Source: a virus
Taxonomy: Duplodnaviria; Heunggongvirae; Uroviricota; Caudoviricetes
Virus record (IMG/VR): IMGVR_UViG_2548876956_000009
Location: 1-7,836 of that record
Length of the DNA: 7,836 bases
Direction: 5' to 3' (one strand)
This document shows positions 3,001 to 6,000 of the stretch, one piece after another; the stretch's first letter is position 1, and each line of letters starts with the position of its first letter. Position numbers: made by a program.

Positions 3001-6000
3001 TGATTCGGATGTCTGGTCACGCAGCTGGTTGTCGCAGTGCCAGCACAACACCATTGCGCCGGTACCATAACGGTGAATGACGGTTTCGCTGTGATGATAA
3101 TCGCCGTGTGGCCACTGGCAGGATTTAATATGGCGCAACAGCCAGTCAGACAATGCACCAGCACCACCAGCAGCACGAATCACCCGTGCGTTACTGAAAA
3201 ACGGCAGCAATGTTTTGTCTTCCACCAGCGGCTGGCGAACGGCAGGAACGACCCCGGACGGCAGATTACGCATGCTTTTCGGTTCCGGCCCCACCAATAC
3301 CCGGGTATTGTGGAATACCGGCATGGATTCACGGCCCGGCTTAACGATCACCAGCCCGAGTTCCGGTACCAGAACAGGTCGAAGTAATACCCGCACGTTA
3401 CCTCCAGATCCGTTGCTGGAATGTGCGGGACGGACGCGGTGGGCGTTCGGAGTAAGGAAGCCTGACGGAGATTATCCAGTGACGATAATCGAGGCTGAGG
3501 GCTTTCTTAATCTCGTATCCGTGTCTGCGGTAACACTGAATCAGCCATTCGGCCTGTTCTTCAGTGCATGGAGGGTGTTGGTACCAGTCGGTTTTAAATA
3601 CGCGAGAACGCCGCCCATGCCTGCTGGCACGAACGGCATCAGAATTGTGATTTTTGGTATTGTGCGCCATTTGTTTTCTCTGCTGGCGCAGCAGGTGCCA
3701 GTTGTTCAGGCTGGCGTGCGAATTGTAAACCAGAATGCCAGGAAAAAACAAAACCCGCCGAAGCGGGTTAAGTGCGGGTGCGTTGAGGATGCCTGACACA
3801 TCAGAGGTGGCGAGGGATTCTCCCCCGCCTGGTCTCTTACTCCTCAGGTTCGTAAGCTGTGAAGACAGCGACCTCCGTCTGGCCGGTTCGGATTCGTACC
3901 TCGCAGAGGTCTTTCCTCGTTACCAGTGCCGTCACTATGACGGTTAAACAGATGACGATCAGGGCGATTAACATCGCCTTTTGCTGCTTCATAGCCTGCT
4001 TCTCCTTGACCTTTCGGTCCGTAAGAGGCAATCTATATGTGACGAGCATATAGGGGCCTCACTTCGATTTATAGTCGGGTGGGGCTTTTATCTATCTGCC
4101 GTTGGTGTTCATGCCCGAGGCAGATAGCCTCAAGCACCCGCAGCAATTCTACTTAACTCTGCCGTTACAGCAAACCGTTTTCGCCCGATATGGGAATTCC
4201 CATATCGGAATGAATTCAGTTCACCTGGCGAGGCTTAGCGTACAATTTTTTCCGTTTTGTGAGCTGCCCCTACATGCCGCTGGCGCGGCATCCGGAAAAA
4301 GAATCCACGTCCTGAAGGACGTGGAGGATGTCAAGTGCCTTTCCTGGTCCAGCCATATTTTTTGAATGCAGGCGCCGCTTCATCGGTTTGTAGCCATTCT
4401 GCAAATCGACGGGTTTCATCATTTGCATCCTGACGTACTGTAATGTTCATATCACGCCATATCACGTAGTCTGGCGCTATTTCCACGACATCACCAATTT
4501 CTGGATTACTGGCTGCCCAGTCAGCCCAGGTTATCCAGACATCTGCTCCAGGCTGATTCTCAAGAGCCTTACGTGCAGTTCCGCTATTGGGCGCATATAA
4601 AATAATATTTTTTCGGATTGCGGCGACAGTTTCTATATTCCCTTTACGTCCGGCAATATCTTCCCAGACGCCAGTGCCTGATGTATTACTGGTACCACCA
4701 CCATCATTAACAATTACGCCAATCCCGGGTCTGGTCAGGTCGTCAATACTCCGGATATTTTTAGGATTACCTTTCTTTACCAGTAAAATACTTTTTCGCA
4801 GATAAAGAGGCTGAATATCTTTTTCACTGAAGCTGTCTTTATGGTCCCGAATGATAGCCAGAGCAGATTGTTCTGATGCGCCAAACAAGATATCTGCATT
4901 TTTTTTGGCATCTTCATTCCATTTGTTCTGTGGACCGTAATGAACGTTCACTATAACACCTGTTTTTTCGGCATAAAGTTTGGCTGCTTCAAGCAAGGCT
5001 GTATGCGGGCCACCAGGACCATACAGATTGATATCAGCATAAGCAGCAGAAGACAGGAATATTAAAAAACCTGCCATTATGTTCCTCATAAAAAACTCCT
5101 TTTATTGGTTATCATGAAATAAAATTATAAACACTACAAATAATATATATTATATCCAGATAAACTTATCCGACTTTACCTCGTGCATAGCTTGTTATTT
5201 AAAGTTAACAAAATAAGGAAAATTATACGCATATTGAAGAGTATAAACCTTACATGTTGATTACATTTTTGTAATCAACATCCTGTTTGGAATAGCCAGC
5301 CTTTAATGGATAACTATTTCTGACAATGCAATGAGTATAATCAAGTCCATCTTCCACTGAGAATTAGAGGCGGCATGCTTTTTCCGGCTCTTGCCGGATA
5401 TCCGTAATTGTCCATAATCTGCAGATTTATACCTTCTGCATGACCTGTCAGCGAAAATTTGTCCGGTGTTTCTACGGGAATGACATCAAAAGTTACACGC
5501 ACTCGCGTTACCGTGTAGACCTACTTTCCTGCACTTGCAAGATCACAGTGGTGTAACCGTAACAGGAATTTATTCTCTGGACCGGCAGTAAATCCCTGAG
5601 TGGCGTGGTTCCCATATCAATTTCCCGCCAGGCAGCCTCCATTGCCAGCGTACAGGCTGGAGCCATGACCTGCCCTTTAAATCTGGCCCGACCATCCCAC
5701 CGGACGTGTTCTTCTCCCCTGAACTTAGGTACAGTCATCTCCAGTGGCACAAAAGTGTCAGCGCCATGATTTTTGACCGTTATCGCGCTACGGATATTTT
5801 GTTGACTGGTGAAAATCACCCCGCAGAATCAGGCTTATTCCCTTAACCCGGGATTTCATCCTGACCGCCGCCTCACTACGACCAATCAGACTGCCGATGC
5901 ATTTTACCTTCATTGTTAGTATCATGATTTCAGGCCTGCACCATCCGCTCATTGCCCGGACTTCCGACAAATCCCGGCAACCATATCCCGGTGCTTGTTC

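What the first reader, a model, noticed from the sequence alone, without database searches (positions are those of the whole stretch)
3743..4173. Standalone HokD-type toxin locus with its own promoter, structured leader and terminator, lacking relBE
The 51-aa product matches HokD/RelF as recalled, but here it is not preceded by relB-relE as in E. coli K-12 Qin. It has a candidate promoter (4146-4173), a leader with a 9-bp stem (4091-4129) and a 7-bp palindrome spanning an in-frame upstream ATG (4032-4053), and a strong terminator, giving a transcript of about 390 nt, similar to plasmid hok mRNA. That suggests an autonomous type I toxin-antitoxin module, which could stabilise the prophage or act in abortive infection.
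Basis: partly seen in the sequence, partly recalled or inferred. Interest (0 to 1): 0.6.

Follow-up and report, generated by a model that had tools for sequence, protein, structure and literature searches.

The report
Intact hokD/sok toxin-antitoxin prophage locus
This is a complete, ordinary copy of the well-known hok/sok RNA-controlled toxin-antitoxin module sitting in a lambda-like prophage; the E. coli K-12 "relBE-hokD" arrangement that made it look unusual is the truncated form, not the norm.

Summary
Window 3992..3837 (-) encodes a 51-aa peptide identical to K-12 HokD (Pfam HOK_GEF, 1e-23), and no relB/relE homologue exists anywhere in the window.

The locus is not a new kind of standalone toxin. 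It is a full hok/sok-family type I toxin-antitoxin cassette:
- Rfam's hok/sok leader model matches 4139..3990 end to end (103.9 bits).
- The 5' end (tac, 4139-4128) pairs with a 3' fbi box (3788-3776) in the full-length fold.
- Removing the 3' end refolds the leader into the tac/ucb "open" form.
- An in-frame 70-codon mok ORF starts at 4049.
- A Sok antisense RNA (+ strand, about 4041-4090) is predicted by homology with annotated sokC.

K-12 hokD matches the window only from 4006 downstream, so K-12 is the truncated derivative, as already published.

Full-length copies occur in 3816 of 5426 complete E. coli genomes and in 108 phage records. One of these is 933W/Sp5 hokW-sokW, which has been shown experimentally to be a type I TA.

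Verdict: already known, low interest.

Side observation: a 24-nt perfect palindrome at 4185-4208 recurs inside KilA-N genes, where compensatory changes preserve it. It is unexplained.

The parts
4146..4173 (-). hok promoter: -35 TTGCTG (4173-4168), 16-nt spacer, -10 TAGAAT (4151-4146); inferred transcription start at G4139
   Evidence: Read from the sequence. The -10 aligns with the TATAAT of K-12 hokC, and the Rfam leader match begins exactly at 4139. The consensus scan did not call it. The transcription start is inferred, not measured.
3745..4139 (-). full-length hok mRNA (about 395 nt)
   Evidence: MFE -165.8 kcal/mol, z = -7.6 against shuffles; the 5' and 3' ends pair with each other.
4128..4139 (-). 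tac element (GGGUGCUUGAGG) at the mRNA 5' end
   Evidence: It pairs with fbi in the full-length fold, with AAGCCCC (ucb) in the 3'-truncated fold, and with GCCUCGGGCAU in the nascent 49-nt fold, which is the metastable hairpin.
   Evidence: also in the consensus structure of 18 homologous leaders, with compensatory pairs and in the Rfam consensus.
4081..4087 (-). ucb (AAGCCCC): pairs with the mok SD region in the full-length form and with tac in the truncated form
   Evidence: Folds; invariant across 18 leaders.
4021..4060 (-). Sok target hairpin: outer stem GAGGC pairs with GCCUC, inner stem 4053-4047 pairs with 4039-4033, loop CUCGUCA. It contains the mok SD (GAGG, 4060-4057) and the mok AUG (4049-4047).
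   Evidence: Centroid of the truncated fold; Rfam consensus; the outer stem is invariant in 18 leaders.
3837..4049 (-). mok ORF, 70 codons, in frame with hok, so the product is an N-terminally extended Hok
   Evidence: ORF list. The annotated mokC (K-12) and mokW (933W) have the same geometry. An ATG 57 nt upstream in frame 0 is present in most homologous loci.
3837..3992 (-). hok (hokD-type) CDS, 51 aa; SD AGGAG at 4006-4002
   Evidence: 100% identical to K-12 HokD; Pfam HOK_GEF, 1.1e-23.
3776..3788 (-). fbi element (CCUCAACGCACCC), complementary to tac
   Evidence: 12 bp with one bulge, -21.5 kcal/mol, 48 nt after the stop codon. The same position and pairing hold in 34 of 36 leader-bearing homologues from 7 genera, with compensatory changes.
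3743..3769 (-). intrinsic terminator: 7-bp GC-rich stem, UUCG loop, T-run
4006..4034 (+). predicted sok promoter: -35 TTGACC (4006-4011), 17-nt spacer, -10 CAATCT (4029-4034)
   Evidence: Same architecture as upstream of the annotated K-12 sokC (TTGACC-17-CACTCT, 6 nt, then start), from alignment. The -10 is poor and the scan did not call it. Inferred.
4041..4090 (+). predicted Sok antisense RNA (about 50 nt): 9-nt single-stranded 5' tail GACGAGCAU, hairpin, UUUUAU tail
   Evidence: Fold -21.4 kcal/mol, z = -4.25, the same shape as annotated SokC. The start is set by homology with sokC 16952. The 5' tail is complementary to the loop of the target hairpin. No transcript has been shown.
4185..4208 (.). 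24-nt perfect palindrome CCGATATGGGAATTCCCATATCGG, 46 nt upstream of the hok start. Whether it belongs to the locus is uncertain.
   Evidence: It is linked to a hok leader in 43 of 51 viral contigs, but is absent from hokW and from most hok loci.

Best explanation
The locus is a complete hok/sok-family (hokD/hokW-type) type I toxin-antitoxin cassette carried as a moron in the nin region of a lambdoid prophage. The gene order is ydaV-like replication gene, DUF1627, paa, hok, DUF968, rusA, Q.

Inferred mechanism, following the R1 paradigm:
1. A weak promoter gives a stable mRNA of about 395 nt. Its 5' tac box is locked to the 3' fbi box, the mok ribosome-binding site is sequestered, and the RNA is neither translated nor bound by Sok.
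2. During transcription, a 5' metastable hairpin prevents premature translation.
3. Slow 3' trimming removes fbi. tac then pairs with ucb, and the mok start region refolds into a hairpin that presents the loop CUCGUCA.
4. The short-lived antisense Sok RNA (+ strand, about 4041-4090) binds that loop with its 5' tail. This blocks mok translation, and with it the coupled hok translation, and the duplex is destroyed.
5. When Sok supply stops, the matured mRNA pool is translated and the 51-aa Hok peptide depolarises the inner membrane. Sok supply could stop through loss of the element, transcription shut-off, or prophage induction.

Shown here: the sequence elements, their homology, and the predicted folds with conservation and covariation. 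Inferred: the transcript ends, processing, Sok expression, toxicity in this context, and the biological role.
For: - Identity: the Hok peptide is identical to HokD and matches Pfam HOK_GEF. Rfam RF01794 matches 4139..3990 full length, 103.9 bits against a gathering score of 59.
- Homology: the leader is homologous to K-12 hokC/mokC/sokC and to the annotated 933W hokW/mokW/sokW (85.6% identity over 95% of the locus).
- Folds: tac/fbi closure in the full-length fold, z = -7.6. The switch to tac/ucb plus the target hairpin appears once the last 45 nt are removed. The nascent 5' end forms a metastable hairpin. These reproduce the published full-length, truncated and metastable states of R1 hok mRNA (PMC9841398).
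- Conservation: the tac/fbi duplex lies 45-56 nt after the stop in 34 of 36 homologues from Escherichia, Kluyvera, Photorhabdus, Pantoea, Citrobacter, Pseudocitrobacter and an unnamed enterobacterium. There are paired changes: U4:A to C4:G, G12:C to A12:U, G11:C to A11:U. The two exceptions are an IS-disrupted copy and a frameshifted copy.
- Sok: the candidate folds like the annotated SokC, z = -4.25.
- Autonomy: a terminator follows the upstream gene paa at 4325-4304.
- Experiment on relatives: hokW-sokW, whose first 49 leader nucleotides are identical to the window's (primer YO-351), behaves as a type I TA (PMC8621323). The HokD ORF is toxic when expressed (bioRxiv 10.1101/2025.08.07.668861).
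Against: - Neither promoter reaches the thresholds of the consensus scan. The predicted sok -10 (CAATCT) matches only A2 and T6 of the consensus.
- No transcript data exist for this locus.
- Chromosomal hok loci tested earlier (hokA, hokB, hokC) did not give post-segregational killing or rifampicin activation (Pedersen & Gerdes 1999, as summarised in bioRxiv 10.1101/2025.08.07.668861), so sequence-intact does not guarantee active.
- The Sok hairpin here is about 21 nt shorter than in hokW and Rac-type loci.
The comparison with R1 rests on the literature and on the Rfam model.
Confidence: 0.9

Rival explanations
1. It is a sequence-intact but functionally silent relic. Like the K-12 chromosomal hok copies, it is carried passively by the prophage and never kills, either because Sok is always in excess or because the hok mRNA is not activated.
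For: Earlier tests of chromosomal hokA, hokB and hokC loci found no post-segregational killing (cited in bioRxiv 10.1101/2025.08.07.668861). Both promoters are weak by consensus. HokD carries Tyr at position 47, and the reported editing of this codon to Cys is only about 6% in K-12 (PMC12214031).
Against: No IS element, frameshift or deletion is present. Every regulatory box is present and pairs as expected. 556 E. coli records carry the locus at 99% identity or more, and 3816 genomes hold full-length copies. The close relative hokW-sokW is active and affects phage release (PMC8621323).
Confidence: 0.2
2. hok is not autonomous here. It is expressed mainly as part of a longer transcript, either read-through from paa or from the prophage early-right operon, as hokD is transcribed with relBE in K-12. 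The 'promoter' at 4146-4173 would then be irrelevant.
For: All neighbouring genes (ydaV-like, DUF1627, paa, hok, DUF968, rusA, Q) lie on the same strand. The consensus scan finds no promoter. Anti-terminated early transcription in lambdoid phages ignores terminators (established knowledge).
Against: A 9-bp intrinsic terminator follows paa. The -10 TAGAAT sits at the position of the hokC TATAAT, and the family-wide leader starts exactly at 4139. The tac element can only close onto fbi if it is at or near a free 5' end, and that pairing is conserved. Read-through during induction may well add to, but does not replace, the cassette's own transcription.
Confidence: 0.1
3. It is a lone toxin gene with no antitoxin: a HokD orphan whose upstream structure is only an mRNA leader, with no Sok RNA made.
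For: The sok -10 is poor. RefSeq annotation of identical loci lists only hokD.
Against: The antisense strand has a near-consensus -35 (TTGACC) at the right spacing, and a hairpin plus U-tail that folds like the annotated SokC. The same layout is annotated as sokC in K-12 and sokW in 933W, and sokW has been detected by Northern blot (PMC8621323). An unrepressed intact hok locus would be expected to be counter-selected, yet this one is widespread.
Confidence: 0.05

Closest known systems
hokW-mokW-sokW of Stx2 phage 933W / Sakai prophage Sp5
   Same: Lambdoid-prophage-borne hok/sok cassette. It shows 85.6% nucleotide identity over 95% of the locus. tac, the first 49 leader nucleotides, fbi, the hok SD and most of the CDS are identical. 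mok is in frame with hok, and sok is annotated antisense over the mok start. It has been shown experimentally to be a type I TA (PMC8621323).
   Different: The window's Sok hairpin region is about 21 nt shorter, and the Sok 5' tail and target loop differ (GACGAGCAU here; hokW has a different sequence at the mok start). The Hok C-terminus differs (TAYEPEE here, VDYESEK in HokW). The genomic position also differs: the nin region next to paa here, the far right end of 933W there.
K-12 hokD (relF) in the relBE-hokD operon of cryptic prophage Qin
   Same: Identical Hok protein, and 98.5% DNA identity from the hok SD (window 4006) through fbi and the terminator (3744). The downstream neighbourhood is the same (DUF968/ydfU at 85%, then Q).
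   Different: K-12 lacks everything upstream of 4006: the hok promoter, tac, ucb, the mok start, the Sok target, the sok -10 and the sok transcript. relE abuts instead. The literature describes K-12 hokD as inactivated by rearrangement (PMC12214031).
K-12 hokC/mokC/sokC (gef) locus
   Same: Homologous leader with the same tac (GGGUGCUUGAGG), the same short form of the region around the sok -10, an in-frame mok, and the same 10-nt core at the mok start (CCUAUAUGCU). SokC and the predicted Sok fold alike.
   Different: In K-12, IS186 sits 20 nt after the hokC stop, so fbi is lost (L018). HokC differs from HokD at about 18% of residues. hokC lies at a fixed chromosomal site, not in a prophage.
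hok/sok of plasmid R1 (the paradigm)
   Same: The same set of elements and the same predicted full-length, truncated and metastable mRNA states as described for R1 (PMC9841398). The transcript length is similar (about 395 nt). The Rfam family built around these loci matches full length.
   Different: HokW, which is close to this Hok, is only 44% identical to R1 Hok (PMC8621323). By my recollection R1 mok is in a different frame from hok, whereas it is in frame here. R1 is plasmid-borne with a demonstrated post-segregational killing role.

Membership tests
[quoted passage not shown] | Small hydrophobic Hok/Gef toxin ORF (about 50 aa) | tested here: met
   Pfam PF01848 HOK_GEF, 82.9 bits against a cutoff of 22. 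100% identical to K-12 HokD.
[quoted passage not shown] | Conserved structured 5' leader of the hok mRNA | tested here: met
   Rfam RF01794 match, model positions 1-157 of 157, 103.9 bits against a gathering score of 59. Consensus fold of 18 leaders.
[quoted passage not shown] | Long-range tac (5') / fbi (3') pairing that closes the full-length mRNA | tested here: met
   12-bp duplex, -21.5 kcal/mol, present in the MFE and centroid structures. Conserved in position in 34 of 36 homologues, with compensatory changes.
[quoted passage not shown] | Alternative tac/ucb pairing and exposure of the mok start in a target hairpin after 3' truncation | tested here: met
   Predicted fold of 4139..3790. 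It matches the Rfam consensus structure. This is a prediction only.
[quoted passage not shown] | Metastable 5' hairpin in the nascent transcript | tested here: met
   The first 49 nt fold with tac paired to the sequence immediately downstream, -19 kcal/mol. This is a prediction only.
[quoted passage not shown] | mok reading frame that starts upstream of hok and overlaps it (translational coupling) | tested here: met
   70-codon ORF from ATG 4049, in frame with hok. Same geometry as the annotated mokC and mokW. Coupling itself could not be tested.
[quoted passage not shown] | cis-encoded antisense Sok RNA with its own promoter, complementary to the mok translation initiation region | tested here: inconclusive
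   The -35 TTGACC, 17-nt spacer, -10 CAATCT, inferred start at 4041, hairpin and U-tail are homologous in layout to the annotated sokC. However, the -10 is weak, the consensus scan is negative, and there are no expression data.
[quoted passage not shown] | Slow 3' processing of hok mRNA, differential RNA stability, RNase III cleavage of the duplex, killing on loss of Sok | not testable with these tools
   This needs Northern blots with rifampicin chase and genetics. It has been done for R1 and in part for hokW-sokW (PMC9841398, PMC8621323).
relBE-hokD operon (K-12 Qin arrangement) | relB and relE immediately upstream of hokD, co-transcribed with it | tested here: not met
   There are no RelB or RelE hits in the window. 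Homology to K-12 begins at 4006.

The most novel reading that the evidence does not exclude
The 24-nt perfect palindrome immediately upstream of the cassette (4185-4208, centred about 57 nt before the hok start) may not be a gene relic. It could be a portable cis-element, either an RNA or single-stranded-DNA hairpin or a symmetric protein-binding site. The same element is kept by compensatory changes, including silent ones, inside KilA-N genes of unrelated phages with GC content from 30% to 64%. Here it would regulate or delimit the hok cassette, for example as an operator for a KilA-N-type protein that links hok expression to the prophage's state.
Probability: 0.2. Interest if true: 0.55.

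Novelty: already known. Interest (0 to 1): 0.15.

Why it matters
For the finding itself, little changes. It confirms that prophage-borne, full-length hokD-type loci are the common form, and that K-12's relBE-hokD is a truncated derivative, which has been known since 1999.

Two practical points follow:
- RefSeq annotation of identical loci lists only 'hokD'. It omits mok and sok, so automated annotation understates that a complete TA module sits next to the virulence gene paa in these prophages.
- The position in the early-right transcription path, on the sense strand, makes this a convenient natural case for testing whether prophage induction switches on Hok by interfering with convergent sok transcription. 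That could explain the RecA-dependent loss of sokW RNA reported for Sp5.

The palindrome shared with KilA-N genes is the only item here that may be new.

Tried and rejected
- relBE elsewhere in the window: tblastn of K-12 RelB and RelE found nothing.
- Generic sigma-70 scan of 3650-4350: no promoter on either strand at its thresholds. Both promoters are therefore assigned by homology and position only.
- The ORF downstream of hok (3670..3422) as a Rem homologue: no similarity to K-12 Rem and no Pfam family. The DNA there aligns with the unannotated K-12 stretch between ydfU and rem.
- Literature search on hokD/sokD/mokD by word start returned mostly noise.
- My first Python pass used the wrong window offset (I had taken the hok ATG to be at 3990; it is at 3992), so the window was skipped. 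This was corrected.
- The palindrome as a simple coding relic of a KilA-N gene. This is partly consistent: the frame reads HSDMGIPISGENGLL-stop, compared with KilA-N DMGIPISGKNGLIQ. It does not explain exact copies in non-KilA contexts, copies in other reading frames, or the compensatory silent change.
- The palindrome as a general part of hok cassettes: rejected. It is absent from 933W hokW, from the Rac-type locus and from the other 52 genome loci.
- R1 hok/sok was not recovered by the distant DNA search of plasmids, which returned hokD-like copies at about 81% identity. No direct alignment with R1 was therefore made.
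Full report
**1. What is in the sequence**

On the minus strand, window 3992..3837 encodes MKQQKAMLIALIVICLTVIVTALVTRKDLCEVRIRTGQTEVAVFTAYEPEE. This peptide is identical to K-12 HokD and matches Pfam HOK_GEF at 82.9 bits.

- Promoter-like hexamers TTGCTG (4173-4168) and TAGAAT (4151-4146), followed by G4139.
- A 9-bp stem, 4127-4119 pairing with 4100-4092.
- A 7-bp stem, 4053-4047 pairing with 4039-4033, with an in-frame ATG at 4049 in its 5' arm.
- An intrinsic terminator at 3769-3752 plus a T-run.

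The 395-nt RNA from 4139 to 3745 folds far better than shuffled controls (z = -7.6). A tblastn of K-12 RelB and RelE against the whole window finds nothing.

**2. What it is**

Rfam's hok/sok leader family (RF01794, named 'sok') matches 4139..3990 over the whole model, at 103.9 bits against a gathering score of 59. The model runs in the hok-sense orientation and ends at the hok AUG. It therefore identifies the hok mRNA leader, to which Sok is antisense.

I aligned the window with the K-12 relE-hokD region and with K-12 hokC/mokC/sokC.
- K-12 hokD is 98.5% identical to the window from the hok Shine-Dalgarno (window 4006) through the terminator (3744). Upstream of 4006 it is unrelated, because relE abuts there.
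- K-12-type hits in the E. coli collection cover only query positions 168-430, which correspond to 4006-3744.
- The window's upstream 135 nt are instead homologous to the hokC leader, to the annotated hokW/mokW/sokW locus of phage 933W (85.6% identity over 95% of the locus), and to an annotated mok/hok locus in a Rac-type phage.

So the window holds the complete cassette and K-12 holds the truncated one. This agrees with the literature statement that K-12 hokD was inactivated by a genomic rearrangement that removed canonical components (PMC12214031, citing Pedersen & Gerdes 1999).

**3. Anatomy mapped onto the hok/sok model**

PMC9841398 summarises the published scheme for R1. A tac/fbi stem closes the full-length mRNA while ucb sequesters the mok SD. 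[quoted passage not shown] A metastable 5' hairpin acts during transcription.

All three states are reproduced by unconstrained folding of the window sequence:
- *Full length.* GGGUGCUUGAGG (4139-4128) pairs with CCUCAA(C)GCACCC (3788-3776), and the GAGG of the mok SD pairs into the CCCC/ACC run.
- *Last 45 nt removed.* The 5' end pairs with AAGCCCC (4087-4081). The centroid shows GAGGC...GCCUC enclosing the 7-bp stem, with loop CUCGUCA and the mok AUG. This matches the Rfam consensus.
- *First 49 nt alone.* tac pairs with the sequence immediately downstream.

The 70-codon ORF from ATG 4049 is mok. It is in frame with hok, as in the annotated mokC and mokW, which share their stop codons with hokC and hokW.

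**4. Sok**

On the + strand the layout is TTGACC (4006-4011), a 17-nt spacer, CAATCT (4029-4034), 6 nt, then G4041. This reproduces the layout upstream of the annotated K-12 sokC start (TTGACC-17-CACTCT-6-G).

The RNA from 4041 to about 4090 has a 9-nt free 5' tail (GACGAGCAU), a long hairpin and a UUUUAU tail. It folds like SokC (z = -4.25 against -4.34). Its 5' tail is complementary to the loop of the target hairpin.

This part is inferred, for three reasons:
- The -10 is poor.
- The generic promoter scan called nothing on either strand.
- There are no expression data.

**5. Comparative test**

I fetched 53 loci encoding Hok relatives from one-genome-per-species contigs. Of these, 36 have a recognisable tac box 141-170 nt upstream of the hok ATG.

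In 34 of the 36, the best duplex between the tac 13-mer and the 120 nt after the stop codon is an 11-12-bp helix, 45-56 nt after the stop. The two exceptions are a K-12-like hokC copy cut off by IS186 and a frameshifted Shigella copy.

The helix is kept through paired changes:
- U4:A becomes C4:G in Photorhabdus and Pantoea.
- G12:C becomes A12:U in Kluyvera and Photorhabdus.
- G11:C becomes A11:U in Citrobacter.

An alignment fold of 18 leaders recovers the tac/ucb stem, the 9-bp stem (with compensatory pairs) and the GAGGC/GCCUC stem. The mok ATG lies 57 nt upstream in frame in most loci and 58 nt upstream, out of frame, in some.

**6. Distribution and context**

- 4722 of 5426 complete E. 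coli genomes have a match, and 3816 hold at least 80% of the 431-nt locus. 556 records are at least 99% identical.
- 108 phage records match. They include the PPompW prophages (99.3% identity, annotated 'gef: phage maintenance protein') and the Stx phages.
- 530 plasmid records match, mostly at about 81% identity.
- In strain D1 the locus is 100% identical. It lies in a lambdoid prophage next to potC, in the order replication genes, DUF1627, fimbrial pseudogene, paa (AcfC-family adhesin), hokD, small ORF, DUF968, RusA, Q.
- All of these genes are on the hok strand. paa has its own terminator at 4325-4304.

**7. Function**

The closest characterised relative is hokW-sokW of Sp5. It is toxic when sokW's promoter is mutated and is rescued by sokW in trans. 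sokW RNA disappears after mitomycin C in a RecA-dependent way, HokW then appears in the inner membrane, and deleting the locus halves phage release (PMC8621323). R1 hok/sok gives post-segregational killing and partial T4 exclusion (cited in the same paper).

Which of these roles applies here was not tested. My inference is that, because hok lies sense to the early-right operon, anti-terminated read-through on induction would run against the sok promoter and could lower Sok.

A recent survey found hok enriched in prophages and confirmed HokD toxicity (bioRxiv 10.1101/2025.08.07.668861).

**8. Verdict**

The interpretation, an autonomous type I TA, is supported and is now complete with mok, sok, tac, ucb and fbi. 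It is an already known kind of locus and, in practice, an already annotated sequence. Interest is low.

**9. Side observation**

A perfect 24-nt palindrome, CCGATATGGGAATTCCCATATCGG, lies at 4185-4208, four bases beyond the DNA shared with hokW.

*Exact-match scans:*
- 51 viral contigs carry it. In 43 of them a hok leader lies 69 or 87 nt downstream.
- 45 metagenome contigs carry it. About nine are hok-linked. About twenty lie inside KilA-N-domain ORFs (Pfam confirmed) of GC content 30-64% with unrelated flanks. In those ORFs the palindrome always sits at the same domain position and reads (A/S)DMGIPIS.
- Two KilA-N ORFs carry it in another reading frame, and other copies lie in unrelated ORFs or non-coding DNA.

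*Unbiased test.* I collected KilA-N homologues by protein, using codon-degenerate patterns. They carry 16 distinct 24-mers at this site, all near-palindromic. The changes are paired and keep the self-complementarity:
- Met to Ile (ATG to ATC) with a silent Pro change (CCC to CCG).
- Met to Ala together with Ile to Ala.
- Met to Thr together with Ile to Val.

A pair count gives 91% of cells paired, against 33-49% for slid controls. There are 10 cells with changes on both sides, and 0 of 500 shuffles reach the observed value.

No paper in the held library contains the sequence. What it does, and whether the window copy is functional or a relic, is unresolved.

Noticed in passing
window 4185-4208 (also L059-L154, L155-L234): A perfect 24-nt palindrome, CCGATATGGGAATTCCCATATCGG, lies 46 nt upstream of the hok start. 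Exact copies recur inside KilA-N genes of unrelated phages (GC 30-64%) at one fixed domain position, in other reading frames, and in non-coding DNA. KilA-N homologues collected by protein keep the palindrome through compensatory changes, including a silent CCC to CCG change (91% of cells paired; 0 of 500 shuffles reach the observed covariation). Its function is unknown and no literature hit was found.
   Followed up: partly
window 370..204 (-): Rfam STnc100 sRNA (RF02076) matches full length at 104.3 bits, downstream of the Q antiterminator gene (1963..1142). This is presumably the late-promoter leader region of the prophage.
   Followed up: no
window 3854-3851 (-): The HokD Tyr47 codon UAC is followed by G (GCUUACGAA). 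[quoted passage not shown]
   Followed up: partly
window 4041-4090 (+) compared with L002 653-711 and L004 1585-1655: The predicted Sok here has a hairpin about 21 nt shorter than in hokW and Rac-type loci. That region resembles the Citrobacter youngae locus L051. Its 5' region shares a 10-nt core (AGCAUAUAGG) with K-12 SokC. Cross-talk, or deliberate non-cross-talk, between co-resident hok/sok copies is possible; E. coli genomes that have any match hold a median of 2 and up to 10 matching places.
   Followed up: no
window 5089..4331 (-): The gene immediately upstream of the hok cassette is paa, an AcfC-family adhesin (Pfam SBP_bac_11). It is a virulence-associated moron with its own terminator at 4325-4304. 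In strain D1 a frameshifted fimbrial gene lies just upstream of it. The paa-hok junction is conserved in 568 complete genomes.
   Followed up: partly
window 3670..3422 (-): An 83-codon ORF sits between hok and DUF968. It is annotated 'hypothetical' in RefSeq, has no Pfam family and shows no similarity to K-12 Rem, which occupies the corresponding position in Qin. The DNA aligns with an unannotated K-12 stretch between ydfU and rem.
   Followed up: partly
window about 385-1000 (-): Broken ORFs lie here. In strain D1 they correspond to a TerB-family gene with an internal stop and a DUF3927 gene downstream of Q. This is probable pseudogenisation in the late-leader region.
   Followed up: no
L035-L049 (Photorhabdus spp.): Photorhabdus genomes carry many hokD-like loci (several per genome). 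Their tac/fbi helices are fully complementary with no bulge, and the whole leader is conserved. The family is therefore expanded well outside Escherichia.
   Followed up: no
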